A DNA stretch of 36,408 nucleotides from an uncultured Candidatus Poseidoniales archaeon. Its GTDB lineage: Archaea > Thermoplasmatota > Poseidoniia > Poseidoniales > Thalassarchaeaceae. Under the pieces are notes generated by a model. The model was not told where the DNA came from and searched no databases. It was given only the letters and a program-made list of their open reading frames with translations. The stretch spans positions 1 through 36,408 of the forward strand of contig CAYYKF010000005.1 in the NCBI GenBank assembly GCA_964441035.1. Direction: 5' to 3'. Numbering within the stretch: position 1 is the first letter of the stretch; each line of letters opens with the position of its first letter. Both the position numbers and the translations under genes were made by a program. Below, one piece after another: positions 1,324 to 11,215 of this stretch.

Positions 1324-2090
1324 GTGCATGGCTTAGCGTAGATACCGATGATCTCGTACACTTACCATCGCAAAGAGGACACCCTCACCGCTCATCCAAA
1401 CCGATGCCACATTGGCGAACAGAAGGCTATCGAGCCTCACAGCGATTGCTTGATGCTACGGATCGTTTTGTCGAATGGGCGCGCGAAGGCCCGCCAGTAA
1501 CTGTATTTCTTATTGCAGAGCAATTGGATTGTCTTGAATTCACAAAGCGCATGGACACCCTGTTGACATTTCCAAACATTTCGATTGCGTGTCATGGATG
1601 GGGGCACCGATGTTGGTCAGCATGGCCAGAAGATATGTCCGGGTTCACAGAAATGTTGACCGCTTCTAGAGATAGAATTTCTTCATATGCTGGTCCATCT
1701 TGGCGGCCATGGTTTAGGGCACCAGGAGGATACATTGACTCTTGGATGGCCGGACCATTAGCGGCGACTGGATTTAGCCTAGATTCTTCCGTCAATCCTT
1801 CACGGTGGGTTAATCGAAAAATGGGTGGTAATTGGTTGAAGGTTCAGAATTCAATGATGCAATGTGGAATCATTGAGCGCCCTTGGTTGACCACAAGTTT
1901 TGGTCCAGCTTGTGGACCCGCATTGCATCTGCTCCCATTCTCACTCTTTGCAAAGAGAGCATGGAGGAGAAACTCAATATCAATTTCAGATAATCCTGAA
2001 AATGAAGAAGTCACAGCATTGTATTGGCATCTTTTAGACCACGGCCGAGCATCAGGAAGATGGGAACCACCACTGGCTAAATCAAAGTGA
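1320..2090 (+). CDS. polysaccharide deacetylase (NodB / carbohydrate esterase 4-like)
   Basis: NodB-like motifs are present: SVDTDD (TFDD-like), HGWGH (H-x-x-x-H) and FRAPGGY (RPPxG-like). ATG 1320-1322 overlaps the GNAT stop TGA 1321-1323 (ATGA coupling), so it is preferred over the track start at 1281. Confidence 0.6.
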   Translation: MSAWLSVDTDDLVHLPSQRGHPHRSSKPMPHWRTEGYRASQRLLDATDRFVEWAREGPPVTVFLIAEQLDCLEFTKRMDTLLTFPNISIACHGWGHRCWSAWPEDMSGFTEMLTASRDRISSYAGPSWRPWFRAPGGYIDSWMAGPLAATGFSLDSSVNPSRWVNRKMGGNWLKVQNSMMQCGIIERPWLTTSFGPACGPALHLLPFSLFAKRAWRRNSISISDNPENEEVTALYWHLLDHGRASGRWEPPLAKSK

Positions 2091-4746
2091 TGTCATCTCG
2101 TTGCAATGAAATCCCAAATTCTTTGACAGTTTCTTCAAAGACATTGGAATCGATTTCACCTCGACGTACCATCGAAGAAAGCACAGCTAATACAATGTGT
2201 TCAGCATCGATTTCGAAGAAACGTCGTAATGCCTCGCGCGTATCAGAACGACCGAATCCATCCGTTCCGAGTACCACATAATCGCCTGAAACCCACTGTC
2301 GAATAAGTTCAGGAACAGCCATCATATTGTCACTGACTGCAACGGTCGTACCTACACTGTCATCCAAGTGTTCAGAGACCCAACAAGAACGTGGGGATTC
2401 TGAAGGGTGAAGCCGATTCCATCTTTCTGCATCTGCAGCATCACGTCGAAGTTCTCCATAGGATGTAACCGACCAAATCTCGCAGAGGATATCACGCTCA
2501 GCAAGCATTTCCGCTGCCCGTTCCACCTGCAGCATAATCGGTCCAGAACCCAATAATCGAATATTTGCATTCGATTGTTCTTTGAATCGATACAATCCAC
2601 GTAAAATTCCCTCATCAACTCCTTCCGGTTTGGCCGGCATTGCGTGATTTTCGTTGTAGACTGTGATATAGTGAATAACGTCCTTGTTATCATTGCACAT
2701 TTCATCAATTCCGTGTCGGATAATCGTTGCCAATTCGTAAGCAAAAGCAGGGTCCCATGCACGCACAGCAGGATTGGTCATTGCCATCAAATGTGAGTGC
2801 CCATCTTGATGTTGTAATCCTTCACCATTGAGGGTGGTTCTTCCAGCAGTTGCTCCAATCAAGAAACCTCTTGCACGACTATCGGCTGCGGACCAAATTA
2901 AATCAGCAACACGTTGGAACCCGAACATCGAGTAGTAGATGTAGAACGGTATGGTTGGACAGTTCTGTGCAGTATATGATGTCCCACTGGCAATGAATGT
3001 CGACATTGCCCCTGCTTCATTGATTCCTTCTTCTAGGATTTGACCTTGCTTACTTTCTTTGTATTTCATCAATACTGCATGGTCTACGGGTTTGTACAAT
3101 TGTCCTTCAGGCGCATAGATTCCAAATTCACTGAAGAGTGGGTCCATACCAAATGTTCGGGCTTCATCGGGAACGATTGGAACAACACGTTTACCAAAAT
3201 CTCCAGATTTCATTAAACTCCGCATCAAGCGTACGAAAGCCATTGTAGTGCTAACTTTGAGATTGCCTTTGGTTCCATCATCAAATTCTGCATATGCGTC
3301 TTGTTCCGGTACAGACAAATCCATTTTTTGACTCCGTCTTTCAGGTAGAAATCCATCAAGTTGTTCTCGTTGTTTCAGTAGATAATTGACTTCATCTGGA
3401 AATTTCTCAGGTTGTAGGTAAGGCATTTTTTCCAATTCCTCATCACTGAATTCTAAATCCATCTGATCTCGCATGAATTGTAGCACCGTTTGGTCAGCCT
3501 TCTTTTTTCCATGCGTAGAATTTCTTCCTGCAAAAGAAGGCCCAAGCCCCCATCCTTTGATTGTCCTTGCAAGAATTACTGTGGGACGACCTTTGTGTGC
3601 TCTTGCCGCAGAATAAGCTGCGTAAATTTTGACAGGGTCGTGGCCCCCCACGTCATCGGTCAATGCTTCCAATTCCTCATCTGAAAGGTGGGCAATCATT
3701 GCAGCAAGTTCTGGAGTATTGAATAAATCAGTACGAATTACAGCCCCTTCACCGGTCATGATTCTTTGTTCATCACCATCGGCCATCGTTTCAAGTCGTG
3801 TAGCCAGAATACCTTCAGTATCCCTTGCAAATAATTCATCCCAAGATGAACCCCATAGGCACTTGATGACATTCCATCCTGCACCTGTGAATCTTGCTGC
3901 CAACTCCTGTACAATCTTGCTGTTTCCTCTCACAGGACCATCTAGTCGCTGCAGGTTGCAGTTGACCACCATCACCATATTGTCCAAATTTTCTCTTGAT
4001 GCCAAGGTCAATTCTGAGAGCGATTCAGGTTCATCGGATTCGCCATCACCCATGAAATACCAAGTTGTGCTTTCTGAGGTGTCCACCAAATCCCTGTTGT
4101 GGAGATACCGATTGAATCGCGCTTGGCGTATCGCAGTCATCGATCCTAATCCCATGCTGACGCAAGGATACTCCCAATAATCTGGCATCAAGCGTGGATG
4201 TGGGTAGGAAGACAACCCCTTCTTGAAGGCCTCTTGCCGGAAATTCTCCATTCTATCTTCATCCATACGCCCTTCCATCCAAGCACGGGCATACAGGCCC
4301 GGGCTTGCATGACCCTGCCAATAGACGTGGTCGCCATTGCCAGATCCTTCTTTGCCACGAAAGAAATGATTCAAACCCACTTCCCACAAGTGTGCGGTGC
4401 TTGCATAGGTTGAGATGTGTCCACCAATACCCTCGAAATGTTTGTTTGCACGCGTCACCATCATCATTGCATTCCATCGAATAACATCTAGAATACGTTC
4501 TTCGGTTTGCAAATTCCCAGGAAATGTTGGTTGGTCATCGGGATGAATCGTGTTGACGTATGCTGTGTTCGTTAATTCCCCAACAGGAACGCCTGCAGAA
4601 CTTGCTGCAGTTACAGTTTCTTGCAGCAGGTGACGGGCTCGTGCGGCGCCGAGATGTTCTTCAACAGACAAGATGGCCTCACGCCATTCTGCAGTTTCCT
4701 CTTCATCAGAGTCGGGAAGTGCACTTCGGTAGTCATCACTGCCCAT
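2077..4746 (-). CDS. aceE: pyruvate dehydrogenase E1 component, homodimeric (AceE) type
   Basis: 889 aa. GGHISTYASTAHLWEVGLNHFFRGK...GDHVYWQGHASPGLYARAWMEGRMDEDRMENFRQE is nearly collinear with the E. coli AceE ThDP-binding region. Length and N-terminus are typical of AceE. Confidence 0.9.
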   Translation of the reverse strand: MGSDDYRSALPDSDEEETAEWREAILSVEEHLGAARARHLLQETVTAASSAGVPVGELTNTAYVNTIHPDDQPTFPGNLQTEERILDVIRWNAMMMVTRANKHFEGIGGHISTYASTAHLWEVGLNHFFRGKEGSGNGDHVYWQGHASPGLYARAWMEGRMDEDRMENFRQEAFKKGLSSYPHPRLMPDYWEYPCVSMGLGSMTAIRQARFNRYLHNRDLVDTSESTTWYFMGDGESDEPESLSELTLASRENLDNMVMVVNCNLQRLDGPVRGNSKIVQELAARFTGAGWNVIKCLWGSSWDELFARDTEGILATRLETMADGDEQRIMTGEGAVIRTDLFNTPELAAMIAHLSDEELEALTDDVGGHDPVKIYAAYSAARAHKGRPTVILARTIKGWGLGPSFAGRNSTHGKKKADQTVLQFMRDQMDLEFSDEELEKMPYLQPEKFPDEVNYLLKQREQLDGFLPERRSQKMDLSVPEQDAYAEFDDGTKGNLKVSTTMAFVRLMRSLMKSGDFGKRVVPIVPDEARTFGMDPLFSEFGIYAPEGQLYKPVDHAVLMKYKESKQGQILEEGINEAGAMSTFIASGTSYTAQNCPTIPFYIYYSMFGFQRVADLIWSAADSRARGFLIGATAGRTTLNGEGLQHQDGHSHLMAMTNPAVRAWDPAFAYELATIIRHGIDEMCNDNKDVIHYITVYNENHAMPAKPEGVDEGILRGLYRFKEQSNANIRLLGSGPIMLQVERAAEMLAERDILCEIWSVTSYGELRRDAADAERWNRLHPSESPRSCWVSEHLDDSVGTTVAVSDNMMAVPELIRQWVSGDYVVLGTDGFGRSDTREALRRFFEIDAEHIVLAVLSSMVRRGEIDSNVFEETVKEFGISLQRDDITLI

Positions 4747-4891
4747 ACGATTGCCTCCTGATTTGTTCGGCTGAATGATTTGACTTGAATCAATCGCTAT
4801 TAGAAAACATTGCGAATAGTTCGAATACTTGCTATTAATTGACTATTTTCACATTTTTGGCGAATGACCTCAATTGGGTTGCTTTAATAGC

Positions 4892-4910
4892 GCCCTCCTT
4901 ACAGGAGGGC
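4892..4910 (+). promoter_or_regulatory. 7-bp perfect hairpin (GCCCTCC-ttaca-GGAGGGC) whose 3' arm is the Shine-Dalgarno-like GGAGGG, 3 nt upstream of the ATG at 4913
   Basis: Read directly from the sequence. The pairing 4892-4898 with 4904-4910 is all Watson-Crick. Confidence 0.3.
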
Positions 4911-4912
4911 AC

Positions 4913-7900
4913 ATGAGCACTCGCTATGTGAACACGGTTCTAATGGCTATTCTAATGATTTTGATGACCATGAACGGATATCTGGATTACAATCCCGAAG
5001 TAGAAGATGAAGACTCCAAAGAATTACGAGATGTTGTCGATGAATCGTTCGCACCAAGTCCAGGACACGTTGTTTTGGCTGAATATATAGGAGGACAGAA
5101 TTGTCCTCCGTGTTATGGATACTCTAGTCCTGACTTGAAGTCTCTCAGGAATAGCAATCCAGATGAATTTGTTTACATCTCATACATCGCCGCCGATTAT
5201 GGAAATATTCGTTCAGCGCAAGCAGGAGATGTGGCTCCAATCAATCGTATCAGTCATCTTGCAACAGATACAGGCAGTAACAGTGCTCCTCGCGCATACT
5301 TCGGTGATTGCGCACATGGCTCCACCTCCTGTTATATGGGTGGAGCACTGACTAATGGCAAGACATACGACGATTTCTTTTCAGGTGTCAACGGCAAATC
5401 GAATAACATGGCTGCTTCTGTGAATGATTATCAATTGTTCATCTCACAATCTCAGAACGGTCCTGACGCCGATATTACGGTTGAAGCAACGTACACTGGA
5501 GGCGGTACAGTAGACGTTCGAGTTCTTGCAGCAGTGACGGAGGACTCCTGCAATTCACACCCGTACAACGATGGCTCAAAAGCCGGTCATTGTTGGAAGA
5601 AGTGGTTGGTTGACTCAACAAATTCCGGTCCTATTTCGATGACGTTGTCTAGCACACCCTCAACCTACACATGGACCGTTCCAGTAACTACGGTGAATGG
5701 TGGAATGAGCAACATGCTTTCTATCGCATGGCTGCAAGATGATTGGACCAGTGGTGGTACAAGGCACAGTGTCCTCTCTGCGTCGGATTCGTCTATGGTT
5801 CCATTGATTGATGTGGGTGTATCTGATTTTGATGTCACCAATCAAGATGGTAAGCCCGGCTTCAAGACAGGTGACACACTTGACCTCGACCTCACAATCA
5901 CGAACAATGGTGTTGATCCTTACACTGATGGAGGTACCATTTCTGTTTACCATGTCGATGGAACCAATGTCCAATTGATTGATAGTACATCCATTAATTC
6001 CCTTTCAAACACTGGTACTGCTAAGTCTCAATCGTTCTCCACCACCTTTGATACTTCATCGGTGGCAACGACTGCTCACGGTCTTGAAAACTTCAAGGTA
6101 GAATTGACTGGATTGGTGGCGGATGGCCGTGGCCCTAATAATGCCGCCACAGAATATGTGCCTCACGACTTCACCCCATCAACAGACCTACCACAAGCAG
6201 ATGGTTCAACTGCCATTCCAAGAGGTGGTACGCTTGACTTTGACATCACAGGTCATCCTCGTGACAGTATCGATACCTTGGTGACAATGACGCCAGAGTT
6301 TGAAGTGAGCCCAACAGGCCAAAATTCTTGGTCGACTGAGTGGGTAACCGCGCCAAATAGCATTACAGCAGAAGGCACCATCTACGAGCGCTATGTGTTC
6401 ATCGTTGAACCTGTTGCAACTGCAGCAAGTGGTGATTATGACGTGCGTGCACGATTTACGGATGATCGTGGACAAGAAGGAGAATGGAAGATTTCCAGCG
6501 AAGCTTTTGAACTACTCAATGGTATACCGCTTGTGATTGATCCAACCCAGCCTGGGAATACACCTGCCAGTTGCCCAGCATTCCCTGGACCACCTACCGT
6601 TAAAGTCGATACCAACGAATGGGTATCACTCTCGGGTCGGGTTTGCGATGCAGAGACACCGTTGAGCAGTCTTGGAATAACGAGTAGTAGTCCAGCGTTT
6701 GTTGATTGGCACCCTTCCAATTCTACGATTCAAGTTCTCTTTACATCAATGCAGTATGACAGCATGGGCAACCCATTACCACAGGGTATTTCCCTGTCTC
6801 TAGATGACGGCGAAGACACTAACACAGGTACGTTATTGTTTGACGTGATAGAAAATGGCCAACCACGTTGGTCAAGTGTTCCAGCCCAATCTTTCGTTGA
6901 AGGGGGAGGGGTAAACCTCGCTCTTGCGCAGTATCTTTCAGACACTACAGCTGATGGGATGCACGATTCCAGTGTCATGGACCTCTCACTTTCAGTTGTA
7001 TCAACAACACCTTCAGGAATATTAAGCGCTGAAATTTGGGGTAATAACTTGGCTTTGAATGCAATTGATGACGATGTATTTGGTAATGTCATTGTAAGAG
7101 TTAAAGCCACAGATCTTGATGGACAATCGGGAGAGACAGACATACTTGTAGAGGTCTCAAACATTAATGATGCACCCCGATTTGATAACACCGGGTTGGA
7201 CAACCTCATGGTGCAAAAGAATGAGTATCTTGAATTGGATTTAGCCTCAAGAGTGACTGATATCGATGGTGATGATACACAAGTCTGGATTGAGACCACC
7301 TACGTGACCCCACCATACAATCCGCTTTCGGGTATTCTGAACATGTCATGGAATCTAGTTGACAATTACACAGTGACTATTACAGCAACTGATTCTGATG
7401 GAGCCGTTGGCACAGGTCCTGAATGGACCTTTGTTGTGAAAGTAGTTGAGCATTTGCCGTTGACTTGGAGTACTGATGGAGTGACAGGTGATTTTGATCG
7501 AGACGTGACCAATGTTGAGGTTGGAGAGAATGCCTCAGTTTACATAACTCAACTTAGCGCAACTGAACTTTCCAATATTGAAATCAGATGGCAAGCATGT
7601 AATTTGGATTCTCTCATTTGCCACACTTCCGGTGATGAATCAGTTGCTCAAAACGATTTGCTGCAAGGCTATAGTTTCACAACTGACATCGCACATGATG
7701 ATGGCTTTACTTATGGTCTACTCGATAATGATGAACTCAAAATCTATGTTCAAGGTGTAGGCACAAATGGCTTTGACTATAAATCCACAGCAATTTCATA
7801 CATTGTAGAATCTGCATCCCAAGTTAACAATGAAACCGGTGATGGAGATGGAGATAACAATGGAACTGGGAATGACGACGATTCAGAAAAGAAATCAGAA

Positions 7901-8239
7901 GGAATGGATAGTGTGGTACTAGGTGGAATTATCGGTTTGGTTATTCTGTTGATCGTGGCAGGAGTACTGGTTGCAATGTTCTTGCGAGGTGGCCGAAGTG
8001 AAGAGGCCCCAGTCAATTGGGGTGCAGCACATTCACTCGAGGCATCTACTGCAGCACCGATATCAGCAGCACCAGCAGCCCCGGCAGCCGTTGCAACATC
8101 AGAAATGGTCTCAGATTACACACACCTACTTCCTGGTGGGCAGTACATTACAGGACAAGCGGGAGAAACTGTATATTTGGCTCCAAATGGCACTGCTTGG
8201 ACCATGCAAGCAGATAATTCGTTTATTCGAACATCATGA
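4913..8239 (+). CDS. large cell-surface protein: N-terminal signal anchor, thioredoxin-like CPPC region, Ig/cadherin-like repeats, C-terminal TM anchor
   Basis: ATG 4913 (MSTRYVNTVLMAILMILMTMNG) is preferred over TTG 4874. Recognisable elements are VVLAEYIGGQNCPPCYG (Omp28-like thioredoxin-fold pattern), the cadherin signature VEVSNINDAPRFD, Ca-binding-like ATDLDGQSGE / VTDIDGDD / ATDSDGAVG, and the C-terminal TM VVLGGIIGLVILLIVAGVLVAMF followed by a short tail. Confidence 0.8.
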   Translation: MSTRYVNTVLMAILMILMTMNGYLDYNPEVEDEDSKELRDVVDESFAPSPGHVVLAEYIGGQNCPPCYGYSSPDLKSLRNSNPDEFVYISYIAADYGNIRSAQAGDVAPINRISHLATDTGSNSAPRAYFGDCAHGSTSCYMGGALTNGKTYDDFFSGVNGKSNNMAASVNDYQLFISQSQNGPDADITVEATYTGGGTVDVRVLAAVTEDSCNSHPYNDGSKAGHCWKKWLVDSTNSGPISMTLSSTPSTYTWTVPVTTVNGGMSNMLSIAWLQDDWTSGGTRHSVLSASDSSMVPLIDVGVSDFDVTNQDGKPGFKTGDTLDLDLTITNNGVDPYTDGGTISVYHVDGTNVQLIDSTSINSLSNTGTAKSQSFSTTFDTSSVATTAHGLENFKVELTGLVADGRGPNNAATEYVPHDFTPSTDLPQADGSTAIPRGGTLDFDITGHPRDSIDTLVTMTPEFEVSPTGQNSWSTEWVTAPNSITAEGTIYERYVFIVEPVATAASGDYDVRARFTDDRGQEGEWKISSEAFELLNGIPLVIDPTQPGNTPASCPAFPGPPTVKVDTNEWVSLSGRVCDAETPLSSLGITSSSPAFVDWHPSNSTIQVLFTSMQYDSMGNPLPQGISLSLDDGEDTNTGTLLFDVIENGQPRWSSVPAQSFVEGGGVNLALAQYLSDTTADGMHDSSVMDLSLSVVSTTPSGILSAEIWGNNLALNAIDDDVFGNVIVRVKATDLDGQSGETDILVEVSNINDAPRFDNTGLDNLMVQKNEYLELDLASRVTDIDGDDTQVWIETTYVTPPYNPLSGILNMSWNLVDNYTVTITATDSDGAVGTGPEWTFVVKVVEHLPLTWSTDGVTGDFDRDVTNVEVGENASVYITQLSATELSNIEIRWQACNLDSLICHTSGDESVAQNDLLQGYSFTTDIAHDDGFTYGLLDNDELKIYVQGVGTNGFDYKSTAISYIVESASQVNNETGDGDGDNNGTGNDDDSEKKSEGMDSVVLGGIIGLVILLIVAGVLVAMFLRGGRSEEAPVNWGAAHSLEASTAAPISAAPAAPAAVATSEMVSDYTHLLPGGQYITGQAGETVYLAPNGTAWTMQADNSFIRTS

Positions 8240-8339
8240 AAGTACAGACATCGACCGGGTTTGTTTACCTCTAGAGCCCAATCCTTAGCGGATTCCGCGT
8301 ACTGAATGATTAAGAGCGGTCGACAGAGGCCGCAGGGCC

Positions 8340-8519
8340 ATGTCTGTTGAGGCTATGGTACAAGGAATGATTGACACGCTGAATGACGCTATGGGAGATG
8401 CTGCAAAGCATGACCGTGGAAACTCTGCCGCGGGCACACGTGTCCGCAAGGCAATGCAGTCCATCAAGGGCAGCGCACAAGATGTGCGCAAGCAGGTTCA
8501 GGCCGACAAGAACGCGTGA
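8340..8519 (+). CDS. small basic protein with histone H1-like Hc1 N-terminal-domain pattern (59 aa)
   Basis: Absent from the ORF track because it has 59 codons. ATG 8340, TGA 8517-8519, in-frame TGA upstream at 8307-8309. The translation is MSVEAMVQGMIDTLNDAMGDAAKHDRGNSAAGTRVRKAMQSIKGSAQDVRKQVQADKNA. The segment GN-x-AAG-x-R-x-RK..IK..A...RK matches my recollection of the Hc1 (PF07432) conserved core. The three longer overlapping track ORFs translate to low-plausibility sequence. Confidence 0.6.
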   Translation: MSVEAMVQGMIDTLNDAMGDAAKHDRGNSAAGTRVRKAMQSIKGSAQDVRKQVQADKNA

Positions 8520-8544
8520 AACAATTTCGTTCTGGAACGTTTGT

Positions 8545-8575
8545 GCCCCCGTCTGGGTTTCCCTCAGGTGGGGGC
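8545..8575. terminator. 13-bp stem-loop (G:C clamp GCCCCC/GGGGGC plus inner pairs with G:U) between convergent genes; candidate bidirectional terminator
   Basis: Positions 8545-8557 pair with 8563-8575, with loop tttcc. It lies 26 nt after the Hc1-like stop and 4 nt after the stop of the minus-strand membrane protein gene. Archaeal termination is usually oligo-T driven, so the function is uncertain. Confidence 0.3.
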
Positions 8576-8578
8576 CTT

Positions 8579-10171
8579 TCACGTTTCAATTTGACAACGC
8601 TCATCGCTTCCATTCCAGTGGTAGACACGCCAGCGTTCGTCTATTTCTGAGCTAAATTCTATTGCAGTCCAATTTCCATTCAATTCGGAATCTACCCTGT
8701 AATCAAATAGAATCCATTCAACATCTTGTAATGTTTGACAGGCATCAATTTCTTCAGCCCAATTTGTATCGTCTGCTCGCCAATGCGCAAGGATGTTTGA
8801 ATCGCTTTCAGGGTCCAGTGTGAGGTGTAATGAATACAGCCTGTGCATCGCTAGCGGGCTTGGTGCGACAAAGAGGAGTTGATCATCGTCTTCCATCTCA
8901 TCGGACAATTCCTCACCGATGACCTCCATTCCGCGAGTACCAGTGGTGGCCAGATGATATGTATTCATGATCATCATGAGGATTATTGCTCCTACCAGCA
9001 GCGTTGCTCTCGATTTTTCTGGTTGGATTACGCTTTCTTCTGGCTTTCTTTCCATCCAAACCCACCACATTGGAACCAGTAACAAGGAAGCATATCTTGG
9101 ATTGTGGCGGAAGGATTCTGGCCACAATTCAAAGAATGACATTTCCAAAGCGATTGCTTCTACCATCCACATCGCGGCAATCCAACCGATGAGAACGCCA
9201 CAACAAACCAATGCAGACAATTGCAACAATGTGATTTCCGTCTTCTCTTGTCCGCTCCTAATGAAAAGCCCCATTCCAGCATAGATGAAAATGAAACCTC
9301 CGATAAGCCATGCAACTAGCCAAGATTCGATAATGGAAATGAAATATTCTTGAATTGAGAAATCAATTTGACTAAGACGGAATAACATTGTGAGAATAGA
9401 GAGTGCTAGCAGAATACAGGTTGTTTGTTTGAAGTCTAGTTCTAATTTTCTATCAGCGATTTTTTGAGTCCAAACCAATAGCACGAAAATAAATCCAATG
9501 ACATATACTTCAGGCATACCTTTCATCGCAAGGACCATCATACACATGACAGCAGAAAGGACCCACCAAATCGGCATTTTTCCATTCTTCCTTTGCCTTT
9601 CTCCAATGACCAATGCTGCAAATGCAATCGTTACTAGTAGTAGTATCGCTCCTTCTTGATAGACACGCCCCGCTGCTCTGAATAACGGCGAATATAATGA
9701 GGCAAGGGCAGTCAGGCGTAACGCATCTTCTTCGTTCCATAGACTACGTGTAGTGAGATAGACAGTTATCAGTGACAGAAATGATGTGACCAATCCCATC
9801 AAGTGTAATGTTGTCAATGAGATTCCGAATACTGTGAACCACAATTGCATCCACAGATGCCAAGGCCACCAGCGCCCATCAGCTGAAACCTCAGTTGGTG
9901 TTGATTGGTCAGTTTCAGCCGGTCGCGTTGGCCCCCATTCTAAATCAGGTTCACCATCATCCATACCATCAGTGACCATAGTGGCATGCAAATGTGCATC
10001 CAGTCCAGTTGGCATCATTGTTGCTGCAAGAATTTGAAATCCAATACCTATAATCAGAATACAATACCACGTCTTCCGTGAATTCAGGATATTCTTACCC
10101 CACTCTTCAATGGATTCCATTCTTCCTGCAGGTGGAAGGTCTTGCGAATCCATGCGTTGACCCAAGGCCAC
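8579..10171 (-). CDS. polytopic integral membrane protein with C-terminal soluble domain; possibly a GT-C-type glycosyltransferase
   Basis: About 12 hydrophobic spans, with an acidic first loop (TGLDAHLH...DDGEPD) and a ~130-aa C-terminal soluble region. The GT-C assignment rests only on overall architecture. Candidate starts are GTG 10171, ATG 10153 and ATG 10120. Confidence 0.55.
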   Translation of the reverse strand: MALGQRMDSQDLPPAGRMESIEEWGKNILNSRKTWYCILIIGIGFQILAATMMPTGLDAHLHATMVTDGMDDGEPDLEWGPTRPAETDQSTPTEVSADGRWWPWHLWMQLWFTVFGISLTTLHLMGLVTSFLSLITVYLTTRSLWNEEDALRLTALASLYSPLFRAAGRVYQEGAILLLVTIAFAALVIGERQRKNGKMPIWWVLSAVMCMMVLAMKGMPEVYVIGFIFVLLVWTQKIADRKLELDFKQTTCILLALSILTMLFRLSQIDFSIQEYFISIIESWLVAWLIGGFIFIYAGMGLFIRSGQEKTEITLLQLSALVCCGVLIGWIAAMWMVEAIALEMSFFELWPESFRHNPRYASLLLVPMWWVWMERKPEESVIQPEKSRATLLVGAIILMMIMNTYHLATTGTRGMEVIGEELSDEMEDDDQLLFVAPSPLAMHRLYSLHLTLDPESDSNILAHWRADDTNWAEEIDACQTLQDVEWILFDYRVDSELNGNWTAIEFSSEIDERWRVYHWNGSDERCQIET

Positions 10172-10192: not shown

Positions 10193-11215
10193 TTAGAAGT
10201 CGAAAAGAGATGATTGTCCAGTGTTTCGTAATTTCCCAACAGATTTGAGCCGATCCAATGCCCGAGTCATTCGCTTTTCACTAAATTCACGTTCTTCCTG
10301 CAGAAATTTTCTGAGATTCTTTTCATCAGTCATTCCTGCATTAGGCAGCGCATCTTGATGGATTGGATGTTCGTGAAAAATCGATCTGATTTTGTCCAAA
10401 TTTTCTGGCACTGCGATATCCTTCTCTAAGCAAACAGCTTCAACAGTTCCATATTTCTTAATGAGTTTGAGTCCAGTTTTTGGACCGATTCCCTTGATGC
10501 CAGGATGAAAATCAGTTCCAATCATGATGCCCAAATCGACCAGTTGTTCCTGTGTGATTTCATGTTCTTCAAGTAATTCGGAAAGTTGAATTTTCTCTGC
10601 AGTTACTTTTCGGCCGAATTTTTTTGTTCCATGTGCCATCAAATTTCGAATCATGATTGGTGAGCCATACAGTAACACATCCCAATCCTGACTGGCAACT
10701 GCTGCAACTTCACCATTCTTGCATCTAACTGAAGCAGCACCTTCTGCCTCCATCGGTGCTTCAATCCAAGCGACACCCAAATAATCGAACATTTGTTGTG
10801 TCTCTGCAACCATCTCGCGCGTGTAAGATACAATTTGTGATCCCAATTTTTGAGCGGTAACCCAATCTTCAGATTCGACTGCTGCTTCCCATTTCTCACG
10901 TGCTTCATCCTTGCGTGCTTTCCGTTCATCCAGTGTATCCAGTTTCAAATCATGGGGTTTTCCGTCGAAGACAAAGATGGGTTCAATCCCATTTTCAATC
11001 ATTACTGTTGCTCTATCAAGAAATCCCATGAGATGAGAGATTGGCCTACCTTGTGAGTCCTTCAGCGGCCCTCCATCTTGTCCTTCTCCACGCGCGCGTA
11101 TGGAGGTGATGAATTGGTAAGCGACAAGGAACGCATCTACCGCGATACGTTGTCCTGCAAGATCTTTCAGTTCGATGGGTTTAGCGTTTGCTAAATCTCG
11201 GAGGTTGCATCCCAT
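10193..11215 (-). CDS. fen: flap endonuclease 1 (archaeal FEN-1)
   Basis: 340 aa. The N-terminus MGCNLRDL...IAVDAFLVAYQF is XPG-N like, there is an H3TH region (GTDFHPGIKGIGPKTGLKLIKKYG), and a C-terminal PIP box (QSSLFDF). Confidence 0.95.
   Translation of the reverse strand: MGCNLRDLANAKPIELKDLAGQRIAVDAFLVAYQFITSIRARGEGQDGGPLKDSQGRPISHLMGFLDRATVMIENGIEPIFVFDGKPHDLKLDTLDERKARKDEAREKWEAAVESEDWVTAQKLGSQIVSYTREMVAETQQMFDYLGVAWIEAPMEAEGAASVRCKNGEVAAVASQDWDVLLYGSPIMIRNLMAHGTKKFGRKVTAEKIQLSELLEEHEITQEQLVDLGIMIGTDFHPGIKGIGPKTGLKLIKKYGTVEAVCLEKDIAVPENLDKIRSIFHEHPIHQDALPNAGMTDEKNLRKFLQEEREFSEKRMTRALDRLKSVGKLRNTGQSSLFDF

What the first reader, a model, noticed from the sequence alone, without database searches (positions are those of the whole stretch)
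8340..8519. Hidden 59-codon ORF encoding an Hc1-type (chlamydial histone H1-like) basic protein in an archaeal context
The only convincing gene in the 8240-8578 gap is one codon shorter than the ORF-track cut-off. The track instead lists three overlapping ORFs with implausible translations. The product contains GNSAAGTRVRKAMQSIKGSAQDVRKQVQ, which matches my memory of the conserved core of Hc1 / PF07432 (KGNKAA.QR.R....K.AK..RKE). By eye the locus is GC-richer than its flanks, and a strong hairpin follows it. PF07432 is a bacterial family as far as I know. A copy in a Thermoplasmatota-like genome would be a candidate horizontally acquired nucleoid protein.
Basis: partly seen in the sequence, partly recalled or inferred. 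Interest (0 to 1): 0.6.

Follow-up and report, generated by a model that had tools for sequence, protein, structure and literature searches.

The report
Tail-less Hc1-domain gene of MGII archaea
The 59-codon ORF is a real, strongly conserved gene of the abundant marine group II archaea; it encodes only the two-helix pairing domain of the bacterial "histone H1-like" Hc1 family, was acquired once long ago, is shared with marine viruses, and is an untested candidate second chromatin protein beside MC1.

Summary
ORF 8340-8519 (+) encodes 59 aa and matches Pfam PF07432 (Hc1) at 59.8 bits against a cut-off of 23.5.

- **Real gene.** The ATG is conserved in about 80 relatives. dN/dS is about 0.1. A conserved 5' block and a covarying 3' hairpin flank it.
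- **Host.** The genome is a Thalassarchaeaceae (MGIIb) MAG.
- **Distribution.** Among 401 Thermoplasmatota genomes the family occurs only in the two MGII families: 39/39 and 37/62. It was not found in about 300 genomes of the other families. It keeps one syntenic site, between PDH-E1 and FEN1.
- **Origin.** This points to one ancient acquisition that was then inherited vertically. It is not a recent island.
- **Tree.** MGII copies fall with copies from marine viral contigs, one of them a complete 129-kb virus with an archaeal-type PCNA. They are separate from the Bacteroidota-plus-phage side. The donor is unresolved.
- **Protein.** It is only mildly basic (net +2). It lacks the Lys-rich tail that binds DNA in chlamydial Hc1. 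It is predicted to be a helical hairpin that forms a symmetric dimer.
- **Function.** A nucleoid role is plausible, because most MGIIb genomes carry only MC1 plus this gene among known NAP families. It is not shown.

Public databases already flag the domain, but I found no paper that discusses it.

The parts
8340..8519 (+). CDS for a 59-aa Hc1-domain protein (stop codon 8517-8519)
   Evidence: PF07432 at 59.8 bits. The ATG and the MSVEAMVQ start are conserved in about 80 MGII loci, while upstream alternative starts are not. dN/dS is about 0.1. AF2 predicts helix 3-25, a loop, then helix 29-58, with pLDDT 97.3.
8302..8339 (+). Conserved upstream block (GAATGATTAAGAG ... AGAGG): probable 5' UTR or core promoter, with an SD-like GAGG at 8326-8329, 10 nt before the ATG
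   Evidence: Genus alignment. The ATG inside this block (8306-8308) is the start of the public 70-aa gene calls. Here it is out of frame because of a 1-nt indel, so the block is non-coding. The MC1 gene of the same genome has GAGG 9 nt before its ATG. No transcription start site was determined.
8545..8575 (+). GC-rich 13-bp hairpin between the convergent stop codons
   Evidence: The 86 nt that hold it fold at -31.4 kcal/mol, z -2.7. Of 14 consensus pairs, 7 show compensatory changes across 14 genus members.
8576..8588 (+). Conserved tail CTTTCACGTTTCA after the hairpin (an interrupted T-run followed by GTTTCA): terminator-like module
   Evidence: Conserved in the genus. The same architecture of hairpin, T-run and GTTTCA follows MC1 and occurs at four other loci of the genome. 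The simple terminator scan missed it because it has fewer than 5 T in 8.
2077..4746 (-). Synteny anchor: AceE-type pyruvate dehydrogenase E1, divergent from the Hc1 gene
   Evidence: Pfam PDH_E1_M at 297.9 bits. It lies about 200 bp upstream of Hc1 in MGIIa. In the own genus a surface-protein gene is inserted between the two.
4874..8239 (+). 1121-aa surface-protein gene inserted between PDH-E1 and Hc1 in this genus (context only)
   Evidence: No Pfam hit. Homologues of 42-60% identity lie upstream of Hc1 only in same-genus or near-genus loci.
8579..10171 (-). Convergent neighbour: PMT_2-like membrane glycosyltransferase (context only)
   Evidence: PF13231 at 26.9 bits. Weakly conserved homologues occupy the same position in many MGII loci.
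10193..11215 (-). Synteny anchor: FEN1 (XPG_N/XPG_I), an archaeal/eukaryotic-type flap endonuclease
   Evidence: Pfam. It lies 1.1-2.6 kb downstream of Hc1 in both MGII families.

Best explanation
A monocistronic gene encodes a 59-aa helix-loop-helix protein that consists only of the conserved N-terminal domain of the Hc1 family. It most likely forms a symmetric antiparallel homodimer (a four-helix bundle). The family's invariant exposed K23/N28/R34/K37 patch, part of the GN-AAGTRVRK motif, would then sit at each end of the bundle. The gene entered the ancestor of Poseidoniales (MGII) once from outside the archaea. The family is otherwise bacterial and viral, and the donor is unresolved. It has since been inherited vertically at one site, between PDH-E1 and FEN1. 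It was lost from, or is missing in, four MGIIa genera, and it has been exchanged with viruses of these archaea. The proposed function is inferred, not shown: a small, abundant dimer that associates with nucleic acid and acts as an architectural protein beside MC1. Most MGIIb genomes have no histone, Alba or HU. Confidence by part: real gene and family membership about 0.97; single ancient acquisition with vertical descent about 0.85; homodimer about 0.7; DNA/nucleoid role about 0.45.
For: Gene and family.
Distribution: in the phylum sample, f1 has the gene in 39/39 genomes and f3 in 37/62, and it was not found in about 300 genomes of the other families. In the own genus it is 20/23, and it is single-copy in this genome.
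Synteny: the same site is kept in both families, including the divergent alleles. In a genus that lacks the gene, the site is clean and empty, with PDH-E1 and the glycosyltransferase about 77 bp apart.
Composition: GC3 tracks the host across 46 loci.
Tree (careful): a 96/91 split separates MGII + 7 viral + 9 unnamed rows from Bacteroidota + 15 viral + 6 unnamed rows.
Bacterial reservoir: 172/301 Bacteroidota genomes carry the family, mostly as tail-less forms of about 60 aa.
Viral copies: at least 351 IMG/VR loci. L107 is a complete 128.8-kb virus with direct terminal repeats, tail-fibre genes, a PCNA_N hit and an Hc1 copy 69% identical to the window's.
Fold: pLDDT 97.3.
Dimer: ipSAE 0.86 against a best control of 0.00. 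That mark was reached by 20 of 30 proteins solved as pairs of one chain and by 1 of 23 solved as single chains. The runs agree in 100% of contacts and the partner pLDDT is at least 93. My own alignment was used, so these counts hold only roughly. Chlamydial Hc1 is reported to dimerise through this domain (PMC2848022).
NAP context: the own genome has MC1 but no histone, HU or Alba. Across the order, MC1 is in 39/39 and 60/62 genomes, one histone hit passes the cut-off in 101 genomes, and Alba is in 4/50 MGIIb genomes.
Shared signals: Hc1 and MC1 share extreme GC3, an SD-like GAGG and the same terminator-like module.
Against: In Chlamydia, DNA binding maps to the Lys-rich C-terminal tail. This protein lacks that tail (the original papers are not held).
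Net charge is only +2, and ranges from 0 to +3 across MGII.
No expression data were found. An MGII metatranscriptome paper lists MC1b among highly transcribed genes but mentions no Hc1 or histone, in the text or the supplements.
Four MGIIa genera do without the gene.
There is no solved structure and no significant structural match.
The tree has only 60 columns and no root. The direction of virus-host exchange and the bacterial donor are therefore not shown.
Confidence: 0.6

Rival explanations
1. The protein is a dimeric helical module with a role that does not involve DNA. It could be an adaptor or regulator, or an RNA- or ribosome-associated factor. The 'histone-like' label would then be inherited from the chlamydial tail that this protein does not have.
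For: Only the dimerisation domain is present. Net charge is low. Tail-less forms predominate in Bacteroidota and in viruses, and I found no functional study of them. The weak structural look-alikes are generic helical hairpins such as ribosomal uL29 and Med11/22.
Against: The most conserved residues of the family are exposed basic and polar ones (K23, N28, R34, K37), rather than only core residues. The C-terminal half has pI 11.1. The gene co-occurs with MC1 in genomes that lack other NAP families.
Confidence: 0.3
2. The gene is at heart a viral gene. It would act in virus-host conflict or in viral genome handling, and it was domesticated by MGII or is repeatedly re-seeded from their viruses.
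For: Hundreds of viral contigs carry it. The nearest non-MGII relatives lie in virus-like gene neighbourhoods. Viral rows are basal to, and nested within, the MGII side of the tree. Divergent host alleles at the same site (the L083 type) group with viral or unnamed rows. Jumbo phages of Bacteroidota carry PF07432 (PMC12619734).
Against: The host copy is single. It keeps a fixed chromosomal site away from any integrase or viral genes in the window. It is under strong purifying selection across the order. L083 is a long branch, so its placement is unsure.
Confidence: 0.1
3. It is a recent horizontally transferred GC-rich islet in this genome, or a bacterial contig binned into an archaeal MAG by mistake.
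For: The locus is GC-richer than its flanks. A few close homologues sit in MAGs titled Yoonia, Acidimicrobiales and Verrucomicrobiales.
Against: Those three contigs carry MGII synteny, including FEN1, so they are the misbinned ones. The gene is present in 20/23 genomes of the genus and in both MGII families at the same site. Its GC3 follows the host.
Confidence: 0.02
4. It is not a gene: the region is only a 3' UTR or terminator between convergent genes.
For: The interval is short and lies between the stop of a large gene and a convergent gene. A strong hairpin is present.
Against: Pfam E 2.3e-16. Start, frame and length (58-60 aa) are conserved across the order. pN is 0.16 against pS 0.61.
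Confidence: 0.01

Closest known systems
Chlamydia trachomatis Hc1 (HctA), the founding member of PF07432
   Same: It shares the N-terminal alpha-helical domain of about 57 aa with the GN-AAGTRVRK core. That domain is reported to mediate dimerisation. Here a symmetric dimer is predicted.
   Different: It has no Lys/Ala-rich C-terminal tail, which is the DNA/RNA-binding and condensing part of HctA. It is 59 aa long against about 125 aa. The NCBIfam HctA equivalog scores 18.5 against a cut-off of 100. The host is archaeal, and there is no sign of developmental or sRNA control.
Tail-less 'histone H1-like' Hc1-domain proteins of Bacteroidota (Cytophagales, Sphingobacteriales)
   Same: Same size (57-65 aa) and domain-only architecture. 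They are 46-54% identical overall, with a nearly identical core. They are common: 172/301 genomes.
   Different: The N-terminal helix differs: MGII has a KHD-type motif where Bacteroidota have KFYDK, and there is a 3-residue indel. They fall on the other side of a 96/91-supported split. They often occur in several copies per genome, and some (Hymenobacter) carry an AAPAKKK tail. Their function is also uncharacterised in the literature I could search.
PF07432 genes of large marine phages ('moraphages') and other IMG/VR viral contigs
   Same: Domain-only proteins of about 60 aa carried by tailed viruses. Some are 61-76% identical to the window protein.
   Different: The window copy is chromosomal, syntenic across an archaeal order, and not next to viral genes. 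The moraphage hosts are predicted to be Bacteroidota.
MC1, the known horizontally acquired chromatin protein of MG-II (Hocher et al. 2022, PMC7613761)
   Same: Within Thermoplasmatota it is restricted to Poseidoniales. It is a small gene with extreme GC3, an SD-like GAGG and the same terminator-like module in this genome.
   Different: The fold and family are unrelated (PF05854). MC1 is a monomeric DNA bender with experimental support in methanogens. It is near-universal in MGII (99/101), whereas Hc1 is missing from four MGIIa genera.

Membership tests
Pfam PF07432 (Hc1 domain family) | Match to the family HMM above the gathering score, over most of the model | tested here: met
   59.8 bits against 23.5; profile positions 4-56 of 57. 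Relatives in the order score 25-61 bits.
Pfam PF07432 (Hc1 domain family) | Conserved core motif GN-AAGTRVRK at the start of helix 2 | tested here: met
   G27, N28, A30, A31, G32, T33, R34, V35, R36 and K37 are invariant or at least 90% conserved in a 40-sequence MGII + Bacteroidota alignment.
Pfam PF07432 (Hc1 domain family) | All-alpha N-terminal domain that dimerises | tested here: met
   By prediction only. AF2 gives two helices at pLDDT 97.3. The homodimer scores ipSAE 0.86 against a best control of 0.00. That mark was reached by 20/30 solved homodimers and by 1/23 single chains; contacts agree 100% and pLDDT is at least 93. Experimental dimerisation is reported only for chlamydial Hc1.
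Chlamydial histone H1-like protein HctA/Hc1 (NCBIfam NF051889 equivalog) | Full-length match, including the Lys/Ala-rich C-terminal nucleic-acid-binding tail | tested here: not met
   18.5 bits against a cut-off of 100; only model positions 1-41 of 121 are matched. The ORF ends at the domain boundary. There is no tail in any of about 80 MGII copies.
Chlamydial histone H1-like protein HctA/Hc1 (NCBIfam NF051889 equivalog) | Strongly basic protein that binds and condenses DNA | not testable with these tools
   Computed net charge is +2 and pI is 9.4. The N half has pI 4.35 and the C half pI 11.1.
Archaeal nucleoid-associated protein (functional class) | High cellular abundance and genome-wide DNA association | not testable with these tools
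   Indirect hints only: codon and GC3 signature, SD and terminator module shared with MC1. No expression record was found.
Intrinsic-terminator-like 3' module | GC-rich stem kept by covariation, followed by a U-rich tract | tested here: inconclusive
   The stem is conserved, with 7/14 pairs changed on both sides. The T-run is interrupted (TTTCACGTTTCA), so the consensus scan fails. The same module with a full T-run follows MC1 and four other loci. Termination itself was not tested.

The most novel reading that the evidence does not exclude
The tail-less Hc1 domain is itself a DNA-binding dimer. It is the missing second major chromatin protein of marine group II archaea, above all of MGIIb, which have MC1 but no histones, Alba or HU. 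The gene circulates between these archaea and their large tailed viruses, so a 'bacterial histone-like' module has become core archaeal chromatin and a viral tool.
Probability: 0.3. Interest if true: 0.7.

Novelty: new member of a known kind. Interest (0 to 1): 0.55.

Why it matters
MGII/Poseidoniales are the most abundant planktonic archaea of the surface ocean, and none has been cultured. The published survey of archaeal chromatin credits them with MC1 only (PMC7613761). An order-wide, strongly constrained, domain-only Hc1 gene adds a second candidate chromatin protein. It also marks a second interdomain or viral acquisition in a lineage that lost histones.

The result gives a simple test case for what the widespread tail-less Hc1 domain does. 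That domain occurs in more than half of the Bacteroidota sampled and on hundreds of viral contigs, and I found no functional study of it.

Practically, it also shows that many public gene calls of this ORF (70 or 75 aa) probably start too early. Length cut-offs near 60 aa hide it.

Tried and rejected
**Structure searches**
- phmmer against PDB sequences gave only a chance hit, E 0.25.
- Foldseek against PDB gave nothing at E <= 0.001, only generic helical hairpins.

**Phage and literature searches**
- GenBank phages gave one weak partial hit in an unannotated 635-kb metagenomic phage.
- Literature searches linking Hc1 or histone H1 with MGII, Poseidoniales, archaea or Bacteroidetes found nothing relevant.
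- The MGII metatranscriptome supplements hold MC1b but no Hc1.
- The primary papers on Hc1 domains (PMC177758, PMC1217221) are not held. The domain roles are therefore cited second-hand.

**GC3 as a sign of high expression**
- The idea that high GC3 marks highly expressed genes in general was rejected. The ribosomal-protein cluster has GC3 of 0.38-0.44.
- Ranking all ORFs by GC3 was uninformative, because spurious frames dominated.

**GC excess as a sign of recent transfer**
- Rejected.

**Promoter and terminator scans**
- The sigma-70 promoter scan does not apply to archaea. The terminator scan was negative only because of its T-run rule.
- A TATA assignment for the upstream block was considered, but it conflicts with the SD-like GAGG. 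It is left open.

**Naming the nearest relatives**
- Cluster look-ups returned no organism names.
- Three long contigs could be read only as gene lists.

**Trees**
- The 225-row 'careful' tree did not finish, and the quick trees left the backbone unresolved.
- A 71-row careful tree was used instead. No AU test or rooting was attempted.

**Viral contig overlap**
- The viral contigs that carry MGII-like copies share no other gene with the window's genome.

Full report
**1.

Positions 8340-8519 (+) carry an ATG-initiated ORF of 59 codons. Three longer ORFs overlap it: 8285-8491 (-), 8310-8582 (-) and 8383-8655 (+). Their translations have no support.

The 59-aa product matches Pfam PF07432 (Hc1) with E 2.3e-16 and 59.8 bits against a gathering score of 23.5. 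The match covers profile positions 4-56 of 57.

The locus is GC-richer than its surroundings: 0.55-0.56 against 0.38-0.49. The gene has GC 0.55 and GC3 0.583, against genome gene means of 0.462 and 0.394. That is the 98.5th and 99.1st percentile of in-frame 180-nt chunks.

A 13-bp GC-rich hairpin lies at 8545-8575. The 86-nt stretch that holds it folds at -31.4 kcal/mol, z -2.7.

**2. It is a real gene, and 59 aa is the right length**

- **Start.** In about 80 related loci the ATG and the MSVEAMVQ start are conserved. Upstream in-frame starts come and go.
- **Public 70-aa calls.** They start at an ATG inside a conserved upstream block (GAATGATTAAGAG). In the window that ATG is out of frame because of a 1-nt indel, so the block is non-coding.
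- **Selection.** Against 41 relatives of equal length the median dN/dS is 0.105, with median pN 0.16 and pS 0.61.
- **Copy number.** The gene is single-copy in the window's genome, which is 1.9 Mb in 156 contigs and 83% complete.

**3. The host**

Close relatives (69-93% identity) come from MAGs titled Ca. Thalassarchaeaceae/Thalassarchaeum (MGIIb, including MGIIb-P bins) and Poseidoniaceae/Poseidonia (MGIIa). The window also carries an archaeal/eukaryotic-type FEN1.

Three hits in MAGs titled Yoonia, Acidimicrobiales and Verrucomicrobiales have MGII synteny, including FEN1. They are misbinned MGII contigs.

**4. Distribution and synteny**

| Group (401 Thermoplasmatota genomes, at least 80% complete) | Genomes with the family |
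|---|---|
| All | 77 of 401 |
| Own family (f1) | 39/39 |
| Sister family (f3) | 37/62 |
| f3 genera g4, g5, g19 | 20/21, 16/16, 1/1 |
| f3 genera g6, g7, g18, g20 | 0/9, 0/10, 0/4, 0/1 |
| About 300 genomes of the other families | not found |

- In the own genus, 20 of 23 genomes have it.
- In both families the gene sits divergently next to an AceE-type PDH-E1 and 1.1-2.6 kb from FEN1.
- In the own genus a 1121-aa surface-protein gene has been inserted between PDH-E1 and Hc1.
- In a genus without the gene (G040), PDH-E1 and the glycosyltransferase are about 77 bp apart, and there is no remnant.

The simplest reading is one acquisition before the MGIIa/MGIIb split, then vertical descent and loss in part of MGIIa.

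**5. The GC excess is not a mark of recent transfer**

Across 46 MGII loci the gene's GC3 follows that of its neighbours, from 0.25 to 0.76. It exceeds them in only 21 of 46 loci.

In this genome the MC1 gene is even more extreme, with GC3 0.667. Ribosomal-protein genes are ordinary, at 0.38-0.44. The shared bias of the two small genes remains unexplained.

**6. Relatives outside MGII**

- **Family size.** An exhaustive phmmer search over 1.84 billion representatives found 342 clusters at E <= 0.001.
- **Named cellular relatives.** The nearest are Bacteroidota (Cytophagales and Sphingobacteriales), 46-54% identical overall with a nearly identical core.
- **Bacteroidota prevalence.** 172 of 301 sampled genomes carry the family, in 1-5 copies. 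Most are tail-less forms of about 60 aa. Hymenobacter copies carry an AAPAKKK tail.
- **Viral contigs.** At least 351 IMG/VR loci carry the family. Jumbo phages of Bacteroidota are reported to carry PF07432 (PMC12619734).
- **Careful tree (71 rows, 60 columns).** A 96/91-supported split separates two sides. One side holds the Bacteroidota (themselves a 98/88 clade) with 15 viral and 6 unnamed rows. The other holds all 22 MGII rows with 7 viral and 9 unnamed rows.
- **Context of the unnamed rows.** Of the four looked up, three (P0140, P0168 and a member of P0149's cluster) lie in virus-like neighbourhoods. These show a tape-measure-like gene, ThyX, a DNA methylase and many small genes without a family.
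- **MGII-like viral copies.** Viral contigs with copies 61-76% identical share no other gene with the MGII genome.
- **One complete virus.** IMGVR_UViG_3300017746_000001 is a 128,784-bp genome with direct terminal repeats. It has tail-fibre genes, a serine recombinase near the Hc1 copy and a PCNA_N hit. That family rang only in the archaeal control genomes.

So MGII and viruses that probably infect them share one subfamily. The tree is unrooted and short. Neither the bacterial donor nor the direction of virus-host exchange is shown.

A bacterial or viral origin is inferred from distribution: the family is present in more than half of the Bacteroidota sampled and (from general knowledge of the family) in Chlamydiota, but in only one order of this archaeal phylum, while other archaeal phyla were sampled only through four control genomes, which gave no match.

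**7. What the protein is**

- **Fold.** AlphaFold2 with a 40-row alignment gives a helical hairpin: helix 3-25, a loop at 26-28, and helix 29-58, with pLDDT 97.3.
- **Dimer.** The homodimer test scored 0.86 against a best control of 0.00. That mark was reached by 20 of 30 proteins solved as pairs of one chain and by 1 of 23 solved as single chains. The runs agree in 100% of contacts, and the partner pLDDT is at least 93. My own alignment was used, so these counts hold only roughly.
- **Interface.** The contacts are symmetric and antiparallel (11:11, 14:14, 42:42, 7:21, 39:49). This is a four-helix bundle with the two loops at opposite ends.
- **Conserved surface.** Residues outside the predicted interface include the invariant or near-invariant K23, N28, A30, A31, R34 and K37. 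That gives one conserved basic patch per end of the bundle. Whether these patches contact DNA is my inference.
- **Match to Chlamydia.** The dimer prediction agrees with the report that the conserved N-terminus of chlamydial Hc1 mediates dimerisation, while its Lys-rich C-terminus binds DNA (PMC2848022).
- **What is missing.** The MGII protein lacks that tail. Its net charge is +2 and its pI is 9.4, with an acidic N half (pI 4.35) and a basic C half (pI 11.1). The HctA equivalog model scores 18.5 against 100.

It is therefore a member of the Hc1 domain family. It is not an orthologue of the chlamydial histone-like protein.

**8. Context among chromatin proteins**

| Family | Own genome | Across Poseidoniales |
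|---|---|---|
| MC1 | present | 39/39 (f1) and 60/62 (f3); 1 of about 300 elsewhere in the phylum |
| Histone (PF00808) | none | 1 of 101 over the cut-off, in a 279-aa frame |
| Alba | none | 4/50 MGIIb (genera g9 and g15 only); 39/49 MGIIa |
| HU | none | not searched |

The published survey credits MG-II with MC1, acquired by transfer, and does not mention Hc1 (PMC7613761). In most MGIIb genomes, MC1 and this gene are the only members of known NAP families.

**9. Expression signals (inferred)**

- **Upstream.** A block conserved in the genus lies at about 8302-8339. It contains an SD-like GAGG 10 nt before the ATG (9 nt in most relatives). MC1 has GAGG 9 nt before its ATG.
- **Hairpin.** The 3' hairpin is conserved in the genus, with compensatory changes in 7 of 14 pairs. 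It is followed by the conserved sequence CTTTCACGTTTCA.
- **Shared module.** The same module of strong hairpin, T-run and GTTTCA follows MC1 and four other loci. None of 400 random 50-mers folds as strongly.
- **Other genera.** Other MGII genera have different, shorter hairpins after the gene.

I read the hairpin as a terminator-like or mRNA-stabilising element. It lies between convergent genes, and the neighbour's stop codon is at 8579-8581.

**10. What is known and what is new**

Public collections already hold the protein with a precomputed PF07432 hit. They mostly name it 'hypothetical protein'; one UniRef entry auto-names it 'Histone H1'.

I found no paper that links Hc1 or histone H1 with MGII, and none on the function of tail-less Hc1 proteins.

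The finding is thus a new, lineage-wide archaeal member of a known family, with a viral connection. It is not a new kind of system.

**11. Verdict**

- The gene, the family membership and the ancient single acquisition are well supported.
- The dimer is supported by prediction and by analogy with Chlamydia.
- The nucleoid role is plausible but open, at about 0.45.

Noticed in passing
outside the window: G000:C8:26007-26267 (-): The MC1 gene of the same genome has the most extreme GC3 seen (0.667). It has GAGG 9 nt before its ATG. A GC hairpin, then T8 and CGTTTCA, follow it. This is the same module as after Hc1.
   Followed up: partly
G000: C1:20338(+), C2:3639(+), C5:8576(+), C8:7215(-), C27:3434(-), C138:2964(+): A small class of bacterial-style terminator-like modules occurs in this archaeal genome: a strong GC hairpin, a T-run, then GTTTCA. 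None of 400 random 50-mers folds at -20 kcal/mol or below.
   Followed up: partly
L107 (IMGVR_UViG_3300017746_000001; Hc1 copy at L107:10001-10177): A complete 128.8-kb tailed virus with direct terminal repeats. It has an archaeal-type PCNA hit, tail-fibre genes and a serine recombinase 1.5 kb from an Hc1 copy that is 69% identical to the window's. It is probably an MGII virus.
   Followed up: partly
L083:6001-6180 and L006:1480-1659: Divergent Hc1 alleles (47-62% identity) sit at the same PDH-E1/FEN1 site in some MGII genera (MGIIb g2, g9, g15, g16, and one MGIIa genome). L083 groups with viral or unnamed rows, which suggests in-place allele replacement, fast evolution or a long-branch artefact.
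   Followed up: partly
L028, L059, L064: MGII contigs with FEN1 synteny are binned into MAGs titled Yoonia sp., Acidimicrobiales bacterium and Verrucomicrobiales bacterium. These are likely binning errors in public records.
   Followed up: yes
protein P0167 (representatives search): A 1124-aa protein has 11 separate Hc1-like stretches, so it is a highly repeated form of the domain. Its origin is unknown.
   Followed up: no
window 8306-8339 and public proteins P0004, P0013 and others: Many public gene calls of this ORF are 70 or 75 aa long because they start at non-conserved upstream codons. The conserved start gives 58-60 aa.
   Followed up: yes
order-level genome sample: Within MGIIb, Alba is found only in genera g9 and g15. 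These are among the genera (g2, g9, g15, g16) whose Hc1 copy is divergent and low-scoring (24-34 bits). Most MGIIb genera have a canonical Hc1 and no Alba.
   Followed up: no
L185 (G040:C2:9000-24000), about 1672-1749: This is the empty site in an MGIIa genus that lacks Hc1. The PDH-E1 start and the glycosyltransferase stop are about 77 bp apart, with no remnant of the gene.
   Followed up: yes
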